This document shows positions 1-14,622 of a stretch of DNA of 26,027 bases, in pieces (position 1 is the first letter of the stretch; the number at the start of each line of letters is the position of its first letter). The stretch lies in NCBI GenBank assembly GCA_036259695.1, contig DATABK010000656.1, positions 1 through 26,027 of the forward strand, read 5' to 3'. A program made the position numbers and the translations under genes. The notes below the pieces were generated by a model. It ran no database searches. It saw only the letters and a program-made list of their open reading frames with translations, and was not told where the DNA came from. Source of the stretch: Actinomycetes bacterium (GTDB lineage Bacteria; Actinomycetota; CALGFH01).

Positions 1-1490
1 CGGAGCCGGGTCCGCTCGGGCGGGCCCCGGACCACCGGGAGGGTGACCACGAAGGTCGTGCCGTGGCCGACGGCCGACTTCACCGTGATCGTCCCCTCGT
101 GGGCCTGGACGACCCAGCGGGTGATGGCCAGGCCGAGCCCCGACCCGGCCATGCCGCGGACGCCCGGGGCGCGCCAGAAGCGGTCGAACACGTGGTCCAG
201 GTGGCCCTCGGCGATGCCCATGCCGGTGTCGCGCACGGCCAGCTCGGCCGTCCCGTCCTCGGCCCCCAGGCGCAGGTCGATCGTGCCCGCCCGGGTGTAC
301 TTGAGGGCGTTGTCGACCAGGTTCCAGACCGCCCGGCGCAGGTCGTCGCGGTCGCCCGAGACCCAGACCTCGGGCAGCGGGCCCAGCGTCACCTCGACCT
401 CGGGGGCGGCCATGCGCAGGGCGTCGCGGTGCACGTCGGCCAGCAGGTGGTCGAGCCGGAATGTCCGCCGGGCCGGGGTGGCCACCGCCGCCTCCAGCCG
501 GGCCAGGGCCAGCAGGTCGCCGACCAGCGACTCCATCCGGCGCAGCTCGATGAGCACGTCGCCCAGCGCCTCGACCCGGTCCTCGGTGCGGGCGCCCGGT
601 ACCCGGGCCAGGAACTCGACGTTGGTGCGGATCGCGGTCAGCGGCGTCCGCAGCTCGTGGGAGGCGTCGGCGACGAAGCGGCGCTGGGAGTCCAGGGTCG
701 TCTTGAGCCCCAGGTTGGCCTGCTCGAGCTCGGCCAGCATCTGGTTGAACGACAGCGACAGGCGGCCGAGCTCGTCATGGGGGTCGCCGTCGACCGGCAT
801 GCGGTGGGAGAAGTCGCGCTCGTCGCCGATCCGCTGGGCGGTGGCCCGCATGCGGGCCAGGGGCCGGAGCAGGGCCGCGGCCAGGCCGAGGCCGAGGAGG
901 GCGGCGACCAGCAGCACGGCCAGCCCGCCGGCGATCAGGATGGTCCGCAGCAGCCGCAGGGACCGCTCGACCCCGGCCAGGGACCGGGCCACCGTGACCT
1001 GGCCCTCCAGCCGGACGGTCTCCCGTGGCGTCTCGGGCGCCTTGATGCCGGGCTGCCGCACGGCCTTGCTGGCCTTGAAGCGCTCGGCGTAGACGGCCAG
1101 GGGCAGGCCGAGCTGGTTGGCCGACGGCCGCACGTTCACCACCTTGCCCGGCTCGACACTGGGCAGGTCGACCCCGGCCAGGGTGTCGGCCGGGTGCTTG
1201 GCCTCGATGGCCAGCGCCAGGTCCTGCTCCTTGCGGGTCTCGACCACGATGTAGGTGTCGCGTTCCTGCCCGTTGGACCACTGGGCGAGGGTGGCCCCGG
1301 CCCGCTCGGCGGTGGTGTCGTAGTCGTCGGCCAGGACCTTGGCCAGCTGGATGCTCTGGCGCTGGACCGAGCCGTAGAACTCCTGGTGGAGGTTGCGGTC
1401 GACGTAGGCGTAGACCCAGAACCCGAACCCGGACAGGGCCGTGGTCAACAGGACCAGGTAGGCCAGGGTGAGCCGGGCCCGGAAGGTCAC
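1..1490 (-). CDS. Sensor histidine kinase (HAMP-HisKA-HATPase, MprB-like); 3' end runs off the window
   Basis: My translation from GTG at 1490 (GTGA overlap with the regulator stop) shows an N-terminal TM, a second TM plus HAMP, H-box FVADASHELRTPLT, N-box WNLVDNALKY, G1 RDTGMGI, F-box VFDRFWR and G2 GSGLGLAI. No stop before base 1, which is why the ORF track lacks it. Confidence 0.93.
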   Translation of the reverse strand, partial: MTFRARLTLAYLVLLTTALSGFGFWVYAYVDRNLHQEFYGSVQRQSIQLAKVLADDYDTTAERAGATLAQWSNGQERDTYIVVETRKEQDLALAIEAKHPADTLAGVDLPSVEPGKVVNVRPSANQLGLPLAVYAERFKASKAVRQPGIKAPETPRETVRLEGQVTVARSLAGVERSLRLLRTILIAGGLAVLLVAALLGLGLAAALLRPLARMRATAQRIGDERDFSHRMPVDGDPHDELGRLSLSFNQMLAELEQANLGLKTTLDSQRRFVADASHELRTPLTAIRTNVEFLARVPGARTEDRVEALGDVLIELRRMESLVGDLLALARLEAAVATPARRTFRLDHLLADVHRDALRMAAPEVEVTLGPLPEVWVSGDRDDLRRAVWNLVDNALKYTRAGTIDLRLGAEDGTAELAVRDTGMGIAEGHLDHVFDRFWRAPGVRGMAGSGLGLAITRWVVQAHEGTITVKSAVGHGTTFVVTLPVVRGPPERTRL

Positions 1491-2179
1491 CGGCTCCCCT
1501 CCGGGTCCTCGCGCAGGACGTAGCCGACCCCGCGGACGGTGTGGATGATCCGCGGCTCGCCCTCCGTCTCGAGCTTGCGGCGCAGGTAGCCGACGTAGAC
1601 CTCCAGGACGTTGGAGTCGCGGCCGAAGTCGTAGTCCCACACCCGCTCCAGGATGGTCGAGCGGGTCAGGACCTGGCGCGGGTGCTCCAGGAACAGGGCC
1701 AGCAGGTCGAACTCCTGGCGGGTCAGGGAGATGGTCCGCTCGCCCCGCCAGACCTCGTGGGTCGAGCGGTCCATGCGCAGGTCGCCGAAGCGCAGCTCGG
1801 CCGACCCGGAGCCGTTGCGGCCCCGGCGCAGCAGCGCCTTCACCCGGACCAGCAGCTCCTCGAAGGCGAACGGCTTGACCAGGTAGTCGTCGGCTCCGGC
1901 CTCGAACCCGGCCACCCGCTCGGGCACCTCGCTGCGGGCGGTCAGCATGAGCACGGCCACCTCCCCGGCCTGCCGGAGCCGCCGGCAGACCTCGAGGCCG
2001 TCGATCCCCGGCAACAGCACATCCAGGATGACCAGGTCGGGCGGGTGGTCGAGGGCCCGGCCGAGGGCCTCCTCGCCGGAGGCGGCCACCTCGACCTCGA
2101 ACCCCTCGTAGGCGAGCGGCCGGCGAAGGGCGGCGGCCAACAGGGGATCGTCGTCGACGACCAGGATGTGCGCGCCCAT
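1487..2179 (-). CDS. OmpR/PhoB-family response regulator (MprA-like), 230 aa
   Basis: MGAHILVVDDD acidic pocket, LVILDVLLPG phospho-Asp, MLTA, GADDYLVKPF, winged helix ending IHTVRGVGYVLR. The upstream extension to 2392 in the ORF track does not look like protein. Confidence 0.95.
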   Translation of the reverse strand: MGAHILVVDDDPLLAAALRRPLAYEGFEVEVAASGEEALGRALDHPPDLVILDVLLPGIDGLEVCRRLRQAGEVAVLMLTARSEVPERVAGFEAGADDYLVKPFAFEELLVRVKALLRRGRNGSGSAELRFGDLRMDRSTHEVWRGERTISLTRQEFDLLALFLEHPRQVLTRSTILERVWDYDFGRDSNVLEVYVGYLRRKLETEGEPRIIHTVRGVGYVLREDPEGSR

Positions 2180-10450: not shown

Positions 10451-10840
10451 GTGCTGGAGGAAGGCGTGCGCCGCCTGGCCAAGGGAAGGAACTTCGCCGC
10501 GTTCACCACCCTGCTGCCCGACGGCCAGCCGATGACCCATGTCATGTGGGTGGACTGCGACGACGAGCACGTGCTGATCAACACCGAGACCCACCGCCAG
10601 AAGGCGAAGAACATCCGCCGCGACCCCCGGGTCACGGTCACCATCTGGGACGACGCCGACCCCTACCGCTACGCCGAGGTCCGCGGCGAGGTCGTCGAGA
10701 CGGTCGCCGGCTCCGAGGCCAGGGCCCACATCGACAGCCTGTCGATGAAGTACAACGGCCACGAGTACCGCAACCGCATCCAGTCCGAGCGGCTCCTGGT
10801 CCGGATCAAGCCCGTCCGTCAGGTGCTGCGGAAGGCCTAG
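10451..10840 (+). CDS. PPOX-class, probably F420-dependent, oxidoreductase
   Basis: 129 aa: FAAFTTLLPDGQP, VMWVD, RQKAKNIRRDPRVTV, YRYAEVRG; GGAGG RBS before the GTG. Confidence 0.88.
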   Translation: MLEEGVRRLAKGRNFAAFTTLLPDGQPMTHVMWVDCDDEHVLINTETHRQKAKNIRRDPRVTVTIWDDADPYRYAEVRGEVVETVAGSEARAHIDSLSMKYNGHEYRNRIQSERLLVRIKPVRQVLRKA

Positions 10841-10944
10841 CTCGGGCCTGGAGCCGAGCTTGTGCTCCGCACCACCGATGGCCACCAGGACGCCGGCTCC
10901 GGCCCGGTTGGTGTCGGAGCCATGGGCGGCTACCAAGCTGGCCT

Positions 10945-10978
10945 CTTACACCTGCTTGATGGCGGTGACGGCTACCAT
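10945..10978 (+). promoter_or_regulatory. Putative promoter of the CutR-like gene with a CTTA-N6-CTTGA box and a TACCAT -10
   Basis: Box at 10945-10959; -10 at 10973-10978, 6 nt before ATG 10985 with no SD (leaderless geometry). Confidence 0.5.
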
Positions 10979-10984
10979 TCAGGC

Positions 10985-11665
10985 ATGCGGGTGCTGGTCG
11001 TCGAGGACGAGGCCGACCTGGCCGACGCGATCGCGCGCGGCCTGCGTCGGGAGGGCTACGCCGTCGACGTGGCCTACGACGGTGACGAGGCCGTCGACAA
11101 GGCGAGCGTCAACGACTACGACGTGGTCTGCCTCGACCTGAACCTGCCCCGCCTTGACGGCATCGAGGTGGTGCGGCGCATCCGGGCCGACGACGTCGGC
11201 CAGCCGACCCGGGTGCTGATGCTGACCGCCCGCGACTCGACCCGTGACCGGATCACCGGCCTGGACGAGGGCGCCGACGACTACCTGGTCAAGCCGTTCG
11301 ACTTCGAGGAGCTCAAGGCGCGGGTGCGGGCCCTGCTGCGCCGCGACGCCGGCCGGTCCGGGGCCGTGCTCCGGGTCGACGACATCGAGCTCGACAGCTC
11401 CCGCCACGACGCCCGCCGCAACGGCCACCAGCTGCCCCTGACACCCAAGGAGTTCGCGCTGCTGCGCTACTTCATGTCCCGGCCGGGGCAGGTGCTCAGC
11501 CAGGAGGACTTGCTGGAGCACGTCTGGGACGAGAACGCCGACCCCTTCACCAACACCGTCCGGGTCACCGTGATGACCCTCCGCCGCAAGCTGGCCGACG
11601 CGGGCGACGGCCAGCCGATCGAGACCGTCGTCGGTCGCGGGTACCGCCTGCGCGAGCAGCCGTGA
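10985..11665 (+). CDS. OmpR-family response regulator (CutR-like)
   Basis: MRVLVVEDEADLADAIARGLRREGYAVDV, CLDLNLP, MLTAR, GADDYLVKPF, ADPFTNTVRVTVMTLRRKL, IETVVGRGY. The resemblance to Streptomyces CutR is from memory. Confidence 0.93.
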   Translation: MRVLVVEDEADLADAIARGLRREGYAVDVAYDGDEAVDKASVNDYDVVCLDLNLPRLDGIEVVRRIRADDVGQPTRVLMLTARDSTRDRITGLDEGADDYLVKPFDFEELKARVRALLRRDAGRSGAVLRVDDIELDSSRHDARRNGHQLPLTPKEFALLRYFMSRPGQVLSQEDLLEHVWDENADPFTNTVRVTVMTLRRKLADAGDGQPIETVVGRGYRLREQP

Positions 11666-13002
11666 ACCCGCCCGGCTGGCTGGTCGACCGCCTGCCGGAG
11701 TGGGCCAGGTCGATCCGCTTCCGCTACACCCTGCTGTACTCGGCCGTGCTCTTCGGCCTGGCCGCGGTGGTGGTCGCGGCCATCTACCTGGTGCTGCTGA
11801 TGGCCCTGCGGAACCAGCCGGTGTCGGCCGGGCGCGGGCTGTGGTGCCGGTACGGCGAGTGCATCCGGTTCCTCTCCCTGAGCGAGTTCGAGCGCCTGGT
11901 CAACTCCCAGATCCTGACCAAGCTGCGCAACTACTCCTTCGGCGCCCTCGGGGTGCTGTTCGTGGCCAGCCTCGGCGTCGGCTGGGTTGTGGCCGGCCGG
12001 GTGCTGCGTCCCATCGGCCGTATCACCTCGGTGGCCCGGGAGATCCAGGCCACCGACCTGTCCCGCCGCATCGAGCTGCCCGGGCCCGACGACGAGCTCA
12101 AGCAGCTGGCCGACACCTTCGACGCCATGCTGGCCCGCCTCGACGCCGCCTTCGCCGCCCAGCGCCAGTTCACCGCCGACGCCTCTCACGAGCTGCGCAA
12201 CCCGCTGGCCATCATCCGCACCAACGTCGACGTCGCCCTGGCCGACCCCCACGCCGACCCCGACGACCTGCGCCACACCATCACCGTGGTCAAACGGGCC
12301 AGCGACCGCATGGCCCGCCTCGTCGACGACCTTCTGGCCCTGGCCCGCCGCCAGGAGCCGACCCTCGAGTTCGAGCCCTTCGACCTCGGCGTCGCCGTCA
12401 CCGAGGCCAGCGACGACTTCGTGGTCCCGGCGGCCGCCCGCAACATCGTCCTCGACCGCGCCATCGCCCCCGGCGTGGTTGTCACCGGCGACCGCGACGT
12501 CCTCAAGCGGGCCGTCGCCAACCTCCTTGACAACGCCGTCCGCCTCGCCCCGGCCGGCTCCCGGGTCCGCCTCGCCACCGGCAGCGAGGGCGACCGGGCC
12601 TGGATCGCCGTCGCCGACGAGGGCCCCGGCATCGCCCCCGAGGACCAGCCCCACGTCTTCGACCGCTTCTGGCGCGCGGACAAGGCCCGCTCCCGCGCCG
12701 ACGGCGGCACCGGCCTCGGCCTGGCCATCGTTCGCCAGATCGTCGAGAGCCACGGCGGCCAGGTGCGCCTGCAGTCCAAGGTGGGGCTGGGGTCGTCGTT
12801 CGTGATCTGGCTCCCGGTGACCGCGGCGAGGGTCGGGGGGGCGGTGGGTCCGGCGGGGTCCTTGGCGGCCGCGGGGTCGCCGGGGTCTTCCGCCGAAGGG
12901 TTCTCCCGCCCTCCCGGCGCCCCATCGCCGGCCCCGGCCCCGGCGCCGACCCCGGCCGAGCGCGCCCGCACCCGGCCGTCGTTCGGCCCGCCTCCGAAGT
13001 AG
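11662..13002 (+). CDS. Sensor histidine kinase (CutS-like) with a short extracytoplasmic loop
   Basis: Two TMs, HAMP (GPDDELKQLADTFDAML), ADASHELRNPL, NLLDNA, DEGPGI, FDRFWR, GTGLGLAI; GTGA-coupled to the regulator; Pro/Ala-rich tail. Confidence 0.94.
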   Translation: MNPPGWLVDRLPEWARSIRFRYTLLYSAVLFGLAAVVVAAIYLVLLMALRNQPVSAGRGLWCRYGECIRFLSLSEFERLVNSQILTKLRNYSFGALGVLFVASLGVGWVVAGRVLRPIGRITSVAREIQATDLSRRIELPGPDDELKQLADTFDAMLARLDAAFAAQRQFTADASHELRNPLAIIRTNVDVALADPHADPDDLRHTITVVKRASDRMARLVDDLLALARRQEPTLEFEPFDLGVAVTEASDDFVVPAAARNIVLDRAIAPGVVVTGDRDVLKRAVANLLDNAVRLAPAGSRVRLATGSEGDRAWIAVADEGPGIAPEDQPHVFDRFWRADKARSRADGGTGLGLAIVRQIVESHGGQVRLQSKVGLGSSFVIWLPVTAARVGGAVGPAGSLAAAGSPGSSAEGFSRPPGAPSPAPAPAPTPAERARTRPSFGPPPK

Positions 13003-13009
13003 GCGCGTC

Positions 13010-13064
13010 CTTATCTCCCCTTGAGGAATGGCTTACCGGTGCTTTAGCGCCGGTCGCCTAGCCT
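13010..13064 (+). promoter_or_regulatory. Putative htrA promoter with two tandem CTTA-N6-CTT(G/T)A boxes and a TAGCCT -10
   Basis: Boxes at 13010-13024 and 13032-13046 (22 nt apart); TAGCCT at 13059-13064. Confidence 0.5.
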
Positions 13065-13108
13065 CGTCGACAACGAGGCTTGCCATGTTCGACCGCAGGA
13101 GGCGACCG

Positions 13109-14622
13109 ATGTCCATCCGGGACGGCCTGGAGCCATCGCGCTCCCCGGACTCCCAGACCCACACCCAGCCACTACCGCGCGACGCGGACGCCACCGCCCA
13201 GCCGGACGGCGCCGCCGACCCGCGACCCGCCGCGCCCGAGTCCCCGCCTCCCGCGTCCGCGGCGACCCCGAACGACCACGCGACCTCCCCGGCCGCCGAG
13301 ACCTGGCCGCCCTCCTGGGGTGAGTCGCCCTCCTCCTGGGGGCGGGACCCGGCGGCCTCCGACAGCGGCCACACCTGGACCCAGGCCCCTTCCGAATCTG
13401 CGTCCAGCCAGCCGCCGGCGCCCGAGGCCGGGGCACCGTCCTGGACCCCGCCGAAGGCCGCCCAGGGTCCCTCGTGGACCCAGCCGAACGACCCCGGCAC
13501 CCAGGCCGACCCGGCCCAGCCCGGCGGGGGCCAGGGCGGCGGCGGCTACCCGACCGTGCCCGCCTGGGGAACCCGGTCGCCTGACGCCGGTTCACCTGGC
13601 GGCCGCCGGCCGTCCCGCTGGCTGGCCGGCCTGGTGGCGGGTGTCGTCCTGCTCGGCGCCGGCTTCGGGATCAGCCAGGCGCTCGACCGCAACGACGAGC
13701 CGGCCGGCGCCGGCATCCCGACCGCGGGCCAGCCCCGGTCGCCGCCGCCCCCACCCCCGCGGGCGAGGAGCCGGCCGCCGCCGTGGCCAAGGCCCTGCTG
13801 CCCACCGTGGTCGAGATCCGCCACGGGAGCGGCGTCGGCTCCGGCTTCGTCTACGACAAGGACGGCTACATCATGACCGCCGCCCACGTCGTCGACGGCG
13901 TGGACGAGGTCGAGGTCCGGCTCTACGACGGCACCAGGCTGGAGGGCAGGGTCGTCGGCACCGACGACCTCAACGACGTGGGGGTGGTCAAGGTCGACCG
14001 CACCGGTCTCGCCGTGGCGCCGCTCGCCGTCGGCCAGGAACTCCAGGTCGGCCAGCTGGCCATCGCCATCGGCAGCCCGTTCGGCCTCAACGAGACCGTG
14101 ACCGCCGGCATCGTCAGCTCCACCGACCGGGTCCTCGAGGACGGCCGTGAGGTCATCCAGACCGACGCCCCGATCAACCCGGGCAACTCCGGCGGGGTGC
14201 TGGCCGACCGCAACGGCCGCGTCATCGGCATCAACAGCGCCATCCGCCCGGGCGCCGGGTCCAGCGGCAACGTCGGCATCGGGTTCGCCGTCCCGATCGA
14301 CCTGGCCGCCAGGTCGGCCACGGCCATTGTCCAGGGCAGGCCGATCCAGACCGGCTACCTCGGCATCCGCATGGCCGACCCCACCGGGAGCCAGGACGGG
14401 GCCATCGTCCAGGAGGTCACCCCGAACAGCCCGGCCTCCCGGGCCGGCCTCCGGGCCGGCGACGTGGTCACCTCGATCGACGGGCAGGCGATCCAGAGCT
14501 ACAGCGAGCTGATCGCCGGCATCCGGGGCCACAAGCCCGGCGACAAGGTCACCCTCGGCGTGACCCGCGGCGGAAACGAAACGACCATCACGGCCACCTT
14601 GACCCAACGCCCCGCCGGTTGA
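13109..14622 (+). CDS. htrA: HtrA/DegP-family serine protease with TM anchor and one PDZ domain, split by a -1 frameshift near 13733-13736
   Basis: ATG 13109 after AGGAGG. Frame A gives a disordered N-tail and a TM (WLAGLVAGVVLLGAGFGI). Frame B gives the triad TAAHVV / DDLNDV / GNSGG and PDZ GYLGI. One extra C in CAGCCCCGGTC joins the two frames. Confidence 0.88.

What the first reader, a model, noticed from the sequence alone, without database searches (positions are those of the whole stretch)
10945..13064. Same CTTA-N6-CTT(G/T)A box at the CutR-like promoter and twice at the htrA promoter
Seen: CTTA-CACCTG-CTTGA (10945-10959), CTTA-TCTCCC-CTTGA (13010-13024) and CTTA-CCGGTG-CTTTA (13032-13046). 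In both promoters the proximal box has nearly the same offset to a TANNNT hexamer (second half-site starts 18 nt before TACCAT and 17 nt before TAGCCT), so it overlaps the -35 zone. The two htrA boxes are 22 nt apart, about two helical turns. Such AT-rich words are rare in this GC-rich DNA. Established: OmpR/PhoB regulators bind tandem direct repeats with a 10-11 bp period, often at -35, and commonly autoregulate. Inference: this is the binding site of the local regulator, defining an autoregulated regulator-kinase-HtrA circuit.
Basis: partly seen in the sequence, partly recalled or inferred. Interest (0 to 1): 0.7.

Follow-up and report, generated by a model that had tools for sequence, protein, structure and literature searches.

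The report
Regulator binding boxes at envelope-stress promoters
The repeated CTTA…CTTGA boxes are a real, conserved promoter element, most likely the docking site of the neighbouring two-component regulator, which would switch on its own gene, the HtrA protease gene and a few other cell-envelope genes in an uncultured soil actinobacterium; this is a new example of a well-known type of circuit.

Summary

- **Rarity:** CTTA-N6-CTT(G/T)A occurs 7 times in the 4.55-Mb, 73% GC genome, against 0.5 expected (P about 7e-7). No other spacing from N0 to N30 gives more than 3.
- **Placement:** All 7 lie between genes and point at the downstream gene. The six promoter-proximal boxes end 11-13 nt before a -10-like hexamer, with no -35 hexamer.
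- **Targets:** the regulator-kinase operon, htrA (two boxes), htpX, a YceI-like gene, a sugar-dehydrogenase lipoprotein gene and a 51-aa protein gene.
- **Conservation:** The boxes persist in orthologous promoters across about 20 related genomes while the flanks diverge.
- **Better description:** pentamers YTKAY on an 11-bp period, two at the regulator promoter (inferred leaderless mRNA) and four at htrA.
- **Identity of the regulator:** It is not the CutR orthologue. It sits in a sister clade that is linked to a protease gene across Actinomycetota. Other lineages of that clade carry different 11-bp repeats at the same place, together with different recognition-helix residues.

Most likely mechanism: the phosphorylated regulator activates promoters that lack a -35 hexamer (class II activation), giving an envelope-stress regulon. 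No binding or expression data exist. This is a new member of a known kind, of moderate interest.

The parts
10945..10960 (+). Operator at the regulator promoter: half-sites CTTAC (10945-10949) and TTGAT (10956-10960), about -40 to -25 from the inferred start
   Evidence: Sequence. Conserved in 20 orthologous promoters while the flanks vary.
10973..10978 (+). -10 hexamer TACCAT. It ends 6 nt before the ATG, so the mRNA is inferred to be leaderless with its start near 10985. No -35 hexamer.
   Evidence: TA(C/G)(C/G)AT lies 6-8 nt before the ATG in all 21 orthologues. The sigma-70 scan finds no -35/-10 pair.
10985..11665 (+). OmpR/PhoB-type response regulator, 226 aa (receiver domain plus winged helix; phospho-acceptor Asp51 is inferred)
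   Evidence: Pfam Response_reg 5e-30 and Trans_reg_C 9e-27. Clade placement.
11662..13002 (+). Sensor histidine kinase. Its start overlaps the regulator's stop codon. An external loop of about 45 aa carries C62-x4-C67.
   Evidence: Pfam HAMP, HisKA and HATPase_c. Translation.
13010..13047 (+). htrA operator: four half-sites on an 11-bp period, CTTAT 13010, TTGAG 13021, CTTAC 13032 and TTTAG 13043 (about -61 to -24)
   Evidence: Sequence. Both boxes are conserved in 9 other genomes of the genus plus G013, and the proximal box is kept in more distant family members.
13059..13064 (+). -10 hexamer TAGCCT of the htrA promoter; inferred start near 13071
   Evidence: Same 12-nt spacing from the box as at the other promoters. 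TA(C/G)(C/G)CT is conserved in orthologues.
13097..13102 (+). AGGAGG ribosome-binding site of htrA
   Evidence: Sequence.
13109..14622 (+). htrA: N-terminal membrane anchor and Pro/Ala-rich linker, then a trypsin-like protease domain and a PDZ domain. In this assembly it is split by a 1-nt deletion after 13731.
   Evidence: Pfam Trypsin_2 1.6e-32 and PDZ_2 5.6e-22. Two reading frames. Orthologues are intact. A contig of run X1 has the extra G.

Best explanation
The boxes are the operator of the locally encoded OmpR/PhoB-type response regulator (10985-11665).

**Proposed mechanism**
1. The kinase phosphorylates the regulator after an envelope or secretion-stress signal.
2. The phosphorylated regulator binds as a head-to-tail dimer to two YTKAY pentamers spaced 11 bp apart. 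These span the -35 position and end 12-13 nt before a housekeeping-type -10 hexamer.
3. Because these promoters have no -35 hexamer, the bound dimer is needed to recruit RNA polymerase, as PhoB does at pho boxes (class II activation).
4. One dimer site drives the leaderless regulator-kinase operon (positive autoregulation). Two adjacent dimer sites drive htrA.
5. Single sites drive htpX, a YceI-like gene, a glucose/sorbosone-dehydrogenase-type lipoprotein gene and a 51-aa protein gene.

Together these form a small envelope protein-quality-control regulon.

**Shown:** the element exists, is non-random, is fixed in position and is conserved.

**Inferred:** which protein binds it, the sign of regulation, the transcription starts and the inducing signal.
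For: - **Statistics:** 7 genomic matches against 0.48 expected, and only at spacing N6.
- **Position:** All 7 are intergenic and co-oriented with the downstream gene. The six promoter-proximal ones lie 11-13 nt upstream of a -10-like hexamer. No canonical -35/-10 pair is found in the locus.
- **Footprint at the regulator promoter:** In 20 orthologous regulator promoters the box and the -10 hexamer are kept while the flanks and spacer vary. The -10 hexamer is always 6-8 nt from the ATG.
- **Footprint at the other promoters:**
  - The double box at htrA is kept in 9 other genomes of the genus plus G013, and partly in further family members.
  - The htpX box is kept in 12 of 13 family orthologues that share 73-96% protein identity.
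  - The yceI box is kept in 7 orthologues of the genus.
  - The dehydrogenase and small-protein boxes are each kept in 3-4 relatives.
- **The regulator is the right kind of protein:** it has a receiver domain and a winged helix.
- **Link between repeat and regulator:** Its orthologues in other lineages carry different 11-bp direct repeats at the same place, and these track the recognition-helix signature:
  - TNT/VMTL with the YTKAY class, 27 of 27.
  - TKT/VMTL with TAAAR, 7 of 8.
  - The GTTTCS repeat was seen only with TNT/VGTL (7 of 43 loci of that signature; 34 show none of the four words).
  - The GAAAR repeat was seen with TQ(S/T)/VGTL (8 of 15) and once with TNT/VGTL.
- **Function of the targets:** HtrA, HtpX (M48 peptidase), YceI and a lipoprotein are all envelope proteins.
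Against: - There are no binding, transcription-start or expression data.
- A paralogous regulator on contig C504 has a nearly identical recognition helix and a CTTAC-N6-GTTAG repeat at its own promoter. Cross-recognition cannot be excluded.
- Overlap with the -35 zone could equally mean repression.
- The link between helix signature and repeat follows clades, so it is not independent evidence.
- The exact pattern also hits 16S rRNA in relatives, so the word alone is not fully specific.
- Reversed-pattern controls in some relatives are not far below the forward counts.
Confidence: 0.75

Rival explanations
1. The element is a real operator, but the regulator represses. Binding over the -35 zone blocks RNA polymerase, giving negative autoregulation and release of htrA and htpX under stress.
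For: The box covers about -40 to -25. Streptomyces CutR represses htrB from a site at -17.
Against: None of the promoters has a -35 hexamer that a repressor would need to occlude. The strict phasing of box and -10 hexamer (11-13 nt) across unrelated genes is the pattern of activator-dependent promoters such as pho-box promoters. Related systems autoregulate positively: C. glutamicum MprA and, from recall, M. tuberculosis MprA.
Confidence: 0.12
2. The boxes are bound mainly by a different OmpR-family regulator, for example the CutR-like paralogue on C504. The local regulator would then be a target, not the binder.
For: The C504 regulator has the helix TNTVRVTIMNLRRKL, against TNTVRVTVMTLRRKL here. 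Its own promoter carries CTTAC-N6-GTTAG.
Against: The strict motif sits at the local regulator's own promoter and at the adjacent htrA in every orthologous locus. In other lineages the repeat type follows the local regulator's helix signature.
Confidence: 0.08
3. The box is a recognition element of an alternative sigma factor, or an UP-like element, rather than a regulator site.
For: Fixed distance to a downstream hexamer. In mycobacteria the envelope-stress sigma factor SigE is linked with MprAB (from recall).
Against: The element is a direct repeat on an 11-bp period and is doubled at htrA. The downstream hexamers are housekeeping-type TANNNT, not the CGT-type of extracytoplasmic-function (ECF) sigma factors. 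The spacing from either half-site to the -10 hexamer (11 or 22 nt) fits no sigma factor's -35/-10 geometry.
Confidence: 0.04
4. Chance clustering of AT-rich words in intergenic DNA.
For: CTTA is commoner in non-coding DNA. A 16S rRNA false positive exists.
Against: Within crude non-coding DNA, 0.32 matches are expected and 6 are seen (P = 1e-6). The excess is specific to one spacing. The boxes are conserved in orthologous promoters.
Confidence: 0.01

Closest known systems
PhoB and pho-box promoters (E. coli), the archetype of class II activation by the OmpR/PhoB family
   Same: Tandem direct repeats on an 11-bp period take the place of the -35 hexamer, at a fixed short distance upstream of the -10 hexamer. 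The regulon is autoregulated. This description of PhoB is from recall. The architecture of the present locus is shown.
   Different: The half-site word differs: YTKAY here, against CTGTCAT-type in pho boxes. The signal and regulon are also different, and the regulator is only a family-level relative (NCBIfam PhoB score below cut-off).
MprAB-PepD (Mycobacterium, Corynebacterium) and CssRS-HtrB (Streptomyces, Bacillus)
   Same: Regulator, kinase and an HtrA-like protease are adjacent. The regulator binds its own promoter and the protease promoter, and the system responds to envelope or secretion stress. The C. glutamicum MprA motif TKTTAAGAAM contains CTTAA on the complementary strand.
   Different: The tree places the MprA/CssR-like regulator of this genome at window 1490-2173, in another clade, and not with this one. 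The kinase here has a loop of about 45 aa, not a sensor domain of about 170 aa. The M. tuberculosis MprA box could not be read here.
CutRS of Streptomyces
   Same: It is the sister clade of regulators. The kinase has two external cysteines. It controls htrA-family genes.
   Different: It is not the orthologue: the genome has its own CutR-like paralogue on C504. The published CutR site is a single TAWATAAA word, and no site was found at the cutRS promoter. The cysteines are separated by 4 residues here, against 17 in S. venezuelae (C85 and C103). Here htrA is adjacent to the system.
CpxAR of E. coli (GTAAA-N5-GTAAA box; degP and htpX in the regulon) and the PmrA box (CTTAAT-N5-CTTAAT), both from recall
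   Same: An envelope-stress regulon that couples an HtrA-family protease with HtpX. The operator is a direct repeat of a 5-6-bp AT-rich word. The sister lineage here uses CTAAAG-N5-GTAAAG. PmrA (BasR) is among the better PDB matches.
   Different: These are distant paralogues in another phylum, so the resemblance is one of function and word only. No orthology is claimed or tested.

Membership tests
OmpR/PhoB-type operator at a class II promoter | The adjacent regulator has a receiver domain plus a winged-helix Trans_reg_C domain | tested here: met
   Pfam E-values 5e-30 and 9e-27.
OmpR/PhoB-type operator at a class II promoter | Tandem direct repeats on a 10-11-bp period | tested here: met
   CTTAC-N6-TTGAT at the regulator promoter. 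Four pentamers 11 bp apart at htrA. TTGAC-N6-TTGA and CTTAC-N6-CTTAC in relatives.
OmpR/PhoB-type operator at a class II promoter | The site overlaps the -35 position at a fixed distance from the -10 hexamer, and there is no -35 hexamer | tested here: met
   11-13 nt from box to hexamer at the six promoter-proximal sites in the genome and in 21 orthologous regulator promoters. No sigma-70 promoter pair is found. The transcription starts are inferred, not mapped.
OmpR/PhoB-type operator at a class II promoter | Sequence-specific binding by the phosphorylated regulator, and regulator-dependent transcription | not testable with these tools
   Needs gel-shift or footprinting assays and reporter assays.
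CutRS (Streptomyces) | The regulator is the orthologue of CutR | tested here: not met
   The reciprocal best hit in S. lanatus is a different locus, L162. The tree separates it, with 100/99 support, from the clade holding the S. lanatus regulator whose kinase has the two-cysteine loop, and G000:C504 falls in that clade. The CutR label on that clade is inferred.
CutRS (Streptomyces) | Binding word TAWATAAA | tested here: not met
   Published motif against the boxes here.
CutRS (Streptomyces) | Two conserved extracellular cysteines in the kinase | tested here: inconclusive
   C62 and C67 lie in the loop. The spacing differs from CutS C85/C103. The S. lanatus orthologue of this kinase has no loop cysteine.
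MprAB-PepD / CssRS-HtrB | Regulator, kinase and HtrA-like protease are adjacent | tested here: met
   The linkage is conserved across Actinomycetota in three arrangements.
MprAB-PepD / CssRS-HtrB | The regulator is the orthologue of MprA/CssR | tested here: not met
   The S. lanatus htrB-like-regulator-kinase locus (L166) groups with the regulator at window 1490-2173, not with this one. The naming of that clade rests on synteny, on the two-cysteine large sensor domain and on recall.
Envelope-stress regulon of the Cpx type (analogy only) | One operator is shared by an HtrA-family protease gene and htpX | tested here: met
   Boxes at htrA and htpX, both conserved in relatives.

The most novel reading that the evidence does not exclude
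This regulator-kinase pair belongs to a third protease-linked envelope-stress two-component family of Actinomycetota, not characterised to my knowledge. It is sister to CutRS and distinct from MprAB/CssRS. Its operator word was rewired between lineages (YTKAY, CTAAAG, GTTTCG, CGAAAG), in step with one or two substitutions in the recognition helix (N to K or Q, M to G), while the 11-bp direct-repeat autoregulatory architecture was kept. That would make it a natural series for studying how the DNA specificity of response regulators evolves.
Probability: 0.4. Interest if true: 0.55.

Novelty: new member of a known kind. Interest (0 to 1): 0.38.

Why it matters
- **Testable operator and regulon:** The work gives a concrete predicted operator, promoter architecture and small regulon for a two-component system in an uncultured soil actinobacterial family. 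The regulon comprises htrA, htpX, yceI, a dehydrogenase-type lipoprotein gene, a small-protein gene and the system's own operon.
- **Third system:** The family carries a third HtrA-linked system beside the MprA/CssR-like and CutR-like ones.
- **Specificity:** The lineage-specific repeat words paired with helix substitutions offer a cheap experimental handle on how regulator specificity changes.
- **Limit:** The principle itself is textbook: an autoregulated OmpR-type activator controlling an envelope protease.

Tried and rejected
- **RNA evidence:** Only contigs of soil metatranscriptomes were available. They cover parts of the locus, and two contigs begin at 10872 and 10873. Contigs cannot show transcript starts and may hold DNA, so they are not used as evidence.
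- **Names from the protein database:** Only generic names were returned, such as 'OmpR family regulator'.
- **M. tuberculosis MprA-box papers:** They are not held, so the comparison with that box rests on recall.
- **Rfam on the htpX leader:** no match.
- **Repeats upstream of the protease gene:** I looked for 11-bp-period repeats in Micromonospora, Actinomadura and Streptomyces loci, where the protease gene precedes the regulator. A crude scan found nothing convincing.
- **Markov-chain simulation of the genome:** It timed out and was replaced by a word-frequency expectation.
- **Relaxed patterns:** They add a few candidates (C120:1790, C601:2139, C466:4487) that I did not validate.
- **CTTACCAGGGCTTGA in relatives:** This recurrent match is inside 16S rRNA and is a false positive.
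- **Calling the S. lanatus best hit 'CssRS':** I considered this and dropped it. Its kinase has no external cysteines, and a second protease-regulator-kinase locus in the same genome does.
- **Complex prediction and structure prediction:** not used, because they cannot test protein-DNA binding.
Full report
**1. The observation**

The offsets to TACCAT (10973-10978) and TAGCCT (13059-13064) are 18 and 17 nt, as stated.

Shuffles of the window expect 0.01 matches.

The window is contig C656 of a metagenome-assembled genome of 880 contigs, 4.55 Mb and 73.3% GC. Across that whole genome CTTA-N6-CTT(G/T)A occurs only 7 times. Word frequencies predict 0.48, giving P = 7e-7. Within crudely defined non-coding DNA they predict 0.32, against 6 seen.

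The excess is specific to one spacing. N6 gives 7 matches, and every other spacing from N0 to N30 gives 0-3.

**2. What surrounds it**

| Coordinates | Feature | Evidence |
|---|---|---|
| 10451-10840 | Unrelated PNPOx-like gene; it ends here | |
| 10985-11665 | OmpR/PhoB-type response regulator | |
| 11662-13002 | HAMP-HisKA-HATPase kinase; start overlaps the regulator's stop; external loop of about 45 aa holds C62-x4-C67 | |
| 13097-13102 | AGGAGG ribosome-binding site | |
| 13109-14622 | htrA: membrane anchor, Pro/Ala-rich linker, trypsin-like domain, PDZ domain | |

No canonical -35/-10 pair exists anywhere in 10800-13200.

**3. The other four sites in the genome**

All four lie between genes, point at the downstream gene, and end 11-12 nt before a -10-like hexamer.

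| Site | Downstream hexamer | Downstream gene |
|---|---|---|
| C44:1222 | TACACT | htpX (Peptidase_M48, 6e-37) |
| C34:3703 | GATGAT | Membrane-anchored YceI-like protein |
| C180:3076 | CACCAT | Lipoprotein of the glucose/sorbosone dehydrogenase family (9e-77) |
| C358:3754 | TACCAT | 51-aa basic protein with no family |

The genome has six trypsin_2 proteases, and only the one next to the regulator carries the boxes.

**4. Conservation**

*Regulator promoter.* Orthologues with 82-98% identity exist in all 20 other genomes of the family.
- In every one, the box and a TA(C/G)(C/G)AT hexamer are kept, 11-13 nt apart. In L007 the script anchored on a second TTGA and printed 4; read by eye, the spacer there is 13.
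- The hexamer ends 6-8 nt before the ATG and there is no ribosome-binding site. I therefore infer a leaderless mRNA starting at about 10985.
- Among the 11 orthologues outside the genus, only the TTA, C and CTTGA columns exceed 80% identity. The flanks sit at 30-60%.

*htrA promoter.* The double box is kept in 9 other genomes of the genus plus G013. The proximal box is recognisable in more distant members.

*Other promoters.*

| Promoter | Where the box is kept |
|---|---|
| htpX | 12 of 13 family orthologues (73-96% protein identity) |
| yceI | 7 orthologues of the genus |
| Dehydrogenase lipoprotein | 3 relatives |
| Small protein | 4 relatives |
| Tat-signal lipoprotein | 3 relatives; not matched in this genome |

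The recurrent match CTTACCAGGGCTTGA in relatives lies inside 16S rRNA and is a false positive.

**5. A better description of the repeat**

In distant family members the first half-site reads TTGAC, giving TTGAC-N6-TTGA. YceI paralogues there have CTTAC-N6-CTTAC.

Equivalent positions are therefore 11 bp apart: CTTAC (10945) and TTGAT (10956). At htrA the four pentamers start at 13010, 13021, 13032 and 13043, a regular 11-bp array that would fit two dimers.

With the inferred starts, the sites cover about -40 to -25 at the regulator promoter and about -61 to -24 at htrA. They bracket the -35 position.

**6. Which regulator family**

- **Best Streptomyces match:** In Streptomyces lanatus the reciprocal best hit (65% identity) is a protease-regulator-kinase locus whose kinase has no external cysteines.
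- **Likely CutRS:** A second S. lanatus regulator (58%) is paired with a kinase that has two loop cysteines 19 positions apart. This resembles CutS C85/C103 and is probably CutRS.
- **Likely CssRS/MprAB type:** A third (46%) follows an HtrA-like gene and is paired with a kinase whose large sensor domain has two cysteines.
- **Tree:** The tree puts the window's regulator with the first of these loci, together with orthologues from Acidimicrobiia, Kribbella, Micromonospora and Actinomadura.
- **Paralogues in this genome:**
  - The CutR-like clade is its sister (100/99 support) and contains the paralogue on C504.
  - The CssR/MprA-like clade contains the regulator at window 1490-2173, which has its own kinase at 3-1490.
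- **Caveat:** These clade names rest on synteny, the cysteine signatures and recall, not on named reference sequences.
- **Protease linkage:** Across the orthologous group the pair is nearly always next to a trypsin-like or HtrA gene. That gene lies downstream, divergently upstream, or directly upstream.

**7. Different words in other lineages**

At the same position upstream of the regulator gene, other lineages carry other 11-bp direct repeats:
- CTAAAG/GTAAAG in a 68-74%-identical group.
- GTTTCG in Acidimicrobiia such as Aquihabitans.
- Four copies of CGAAAG in Kribbella.

These classes track the recognition-helix signature.

| Helix signature | Repeat class | Count |
|---|---|---|
| TNT…VMTL | YTKAY | 27 of 27 |
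| TKT…VMTL | TAAAR | 7 of 8 |
| TNT…VGTL | GTTTCS | 7 of 43 (34 with none of the four words; 1 GAAAR, 1 YTKAY) |
| TQ(S/T)…VGTL | GAAAR | 8 of 15 (7 with none) |

This is what one expects if the local regulator reads these repeats. The classes are clades, however, so the association is not statistically independent.

**8. Mechanism**

The most likely reading is class II activation by the phosphorylated local regulator at promoters that lack a -35 hexamer. It would give positive autoregulation and cooperative double occupancy at htrA.

The regulon resembles Cpx or MprAB/CssRS envelope protein-quality control in content. I put this at 0.75.

The main alternatives are repression from the same site, recognition by the closely related C504 paralogue, and a sigma-factor element.
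- The C504 paralogue has a near-identical helix, and its own promoter carries CTTAC-N6-GTTAG.
- A sigma-factor element is unlikely given the repeat geometry.

Published motifs for the nearest characterised systems differ:
- Streptomyces CutR: TAWATAAA.
- C. glutamicum MprA: TKTTAAGAAM. It shares only a CTTAA core on the complementary strand.

**9. Novelty**

The principle is well known. New here are the predicted operator and regulon for an uncharacterised, protease-linked sister group of CutRS in an uncultured soil lineage, and the apparent co-divergence of operator word and helix. Everything about binding and regulation remains to be shown experimentally.

Noticed in passing
window 13724-13741 (after 13731): htrA is split into two reading frames by a 1-nt deletion in CCAGGCCCC, relative to the intact orthologues L031 and L032. 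A contig of soil run X1 carries the extra G. This is probably an assembly error or a strain variant rather than a fixed pseudogene.
   Followed up: yes
G000:C44, L115:1041-1203 (- strand); also L116-L118, L123, L125, L126: The htpX 5' untranslated region holds a conserved element of about 125 nt, closed by a long-range helix (GTCnGGTCGAGG with CTTCGACCnGAC) and with an invariant CGAGGGGAGTAGC. It has no Rfam match at E <= 0.1 and few compensatory changes so far. It is a candidate structured leader RNA.
   Followed up: partly
window 3-2173 (- strand): A second two-component system: a regulator at 1490-2173 and a kinase with a large sensor domain at 3-1490. In the tree it groups with the Streptomyces htrB-linked, CssR/MprA-like regulator.
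   Followed up: partly
G000:C504:700-1503: A CutR-like paralogous regulator, 60% identical and with a nearly identical recognition helix. Its own promoter has CTTAC-N6-GTTAG on an 11-bp period, so cross-talk with the boxes studied here is possible.
   Followed up: partly
L037-L043, L051; L049, L052, L055, L067, L068, L070-L072, L077; L099-L110 (upstream of the regulator start): Orthologous regulators of other actinobacterial lineages carry other 11-bp direct repeats at the same place (CTAAAG/GTAAAG, GTTTCG, four copies of CGAAAG), together with different helix residues.
   Followed up: partly
window 13062-13078: The inverted repeat CCTCGTCGACAACGAGG lies right at the inferred htrA transcription start and is partly kept in relatives. 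It could be a 5' hairpin or a second operator.
   Followed up: no
L002-L010, about 45-60 nt upstream of the regulator ATG (window 10920-10940): The genus-wide conserved word GCAGTCTAACAAGC lies just upstream of the box. The window itself reads GGCTACCAAGC there. Its function is unknown.
   Followed up: no
G003:C677:5958, G007:C296:20097, G008:C331:4857 (L155-L157): In three relatives a box, CTTA(C/T)CGACACTTTA, precedes a Tat-signal lipoprotein gene. No exact match exists in this genome.
   Followed up: partly
window 10872-11102: Contigs from two metatranscriptome runs of one soil sample begin at 10872 and 10873, about 112 nt upstream of the inferred leaderless start. Contigs cannot define transcript ends, so the meaning is unclear.
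   Followed up: no
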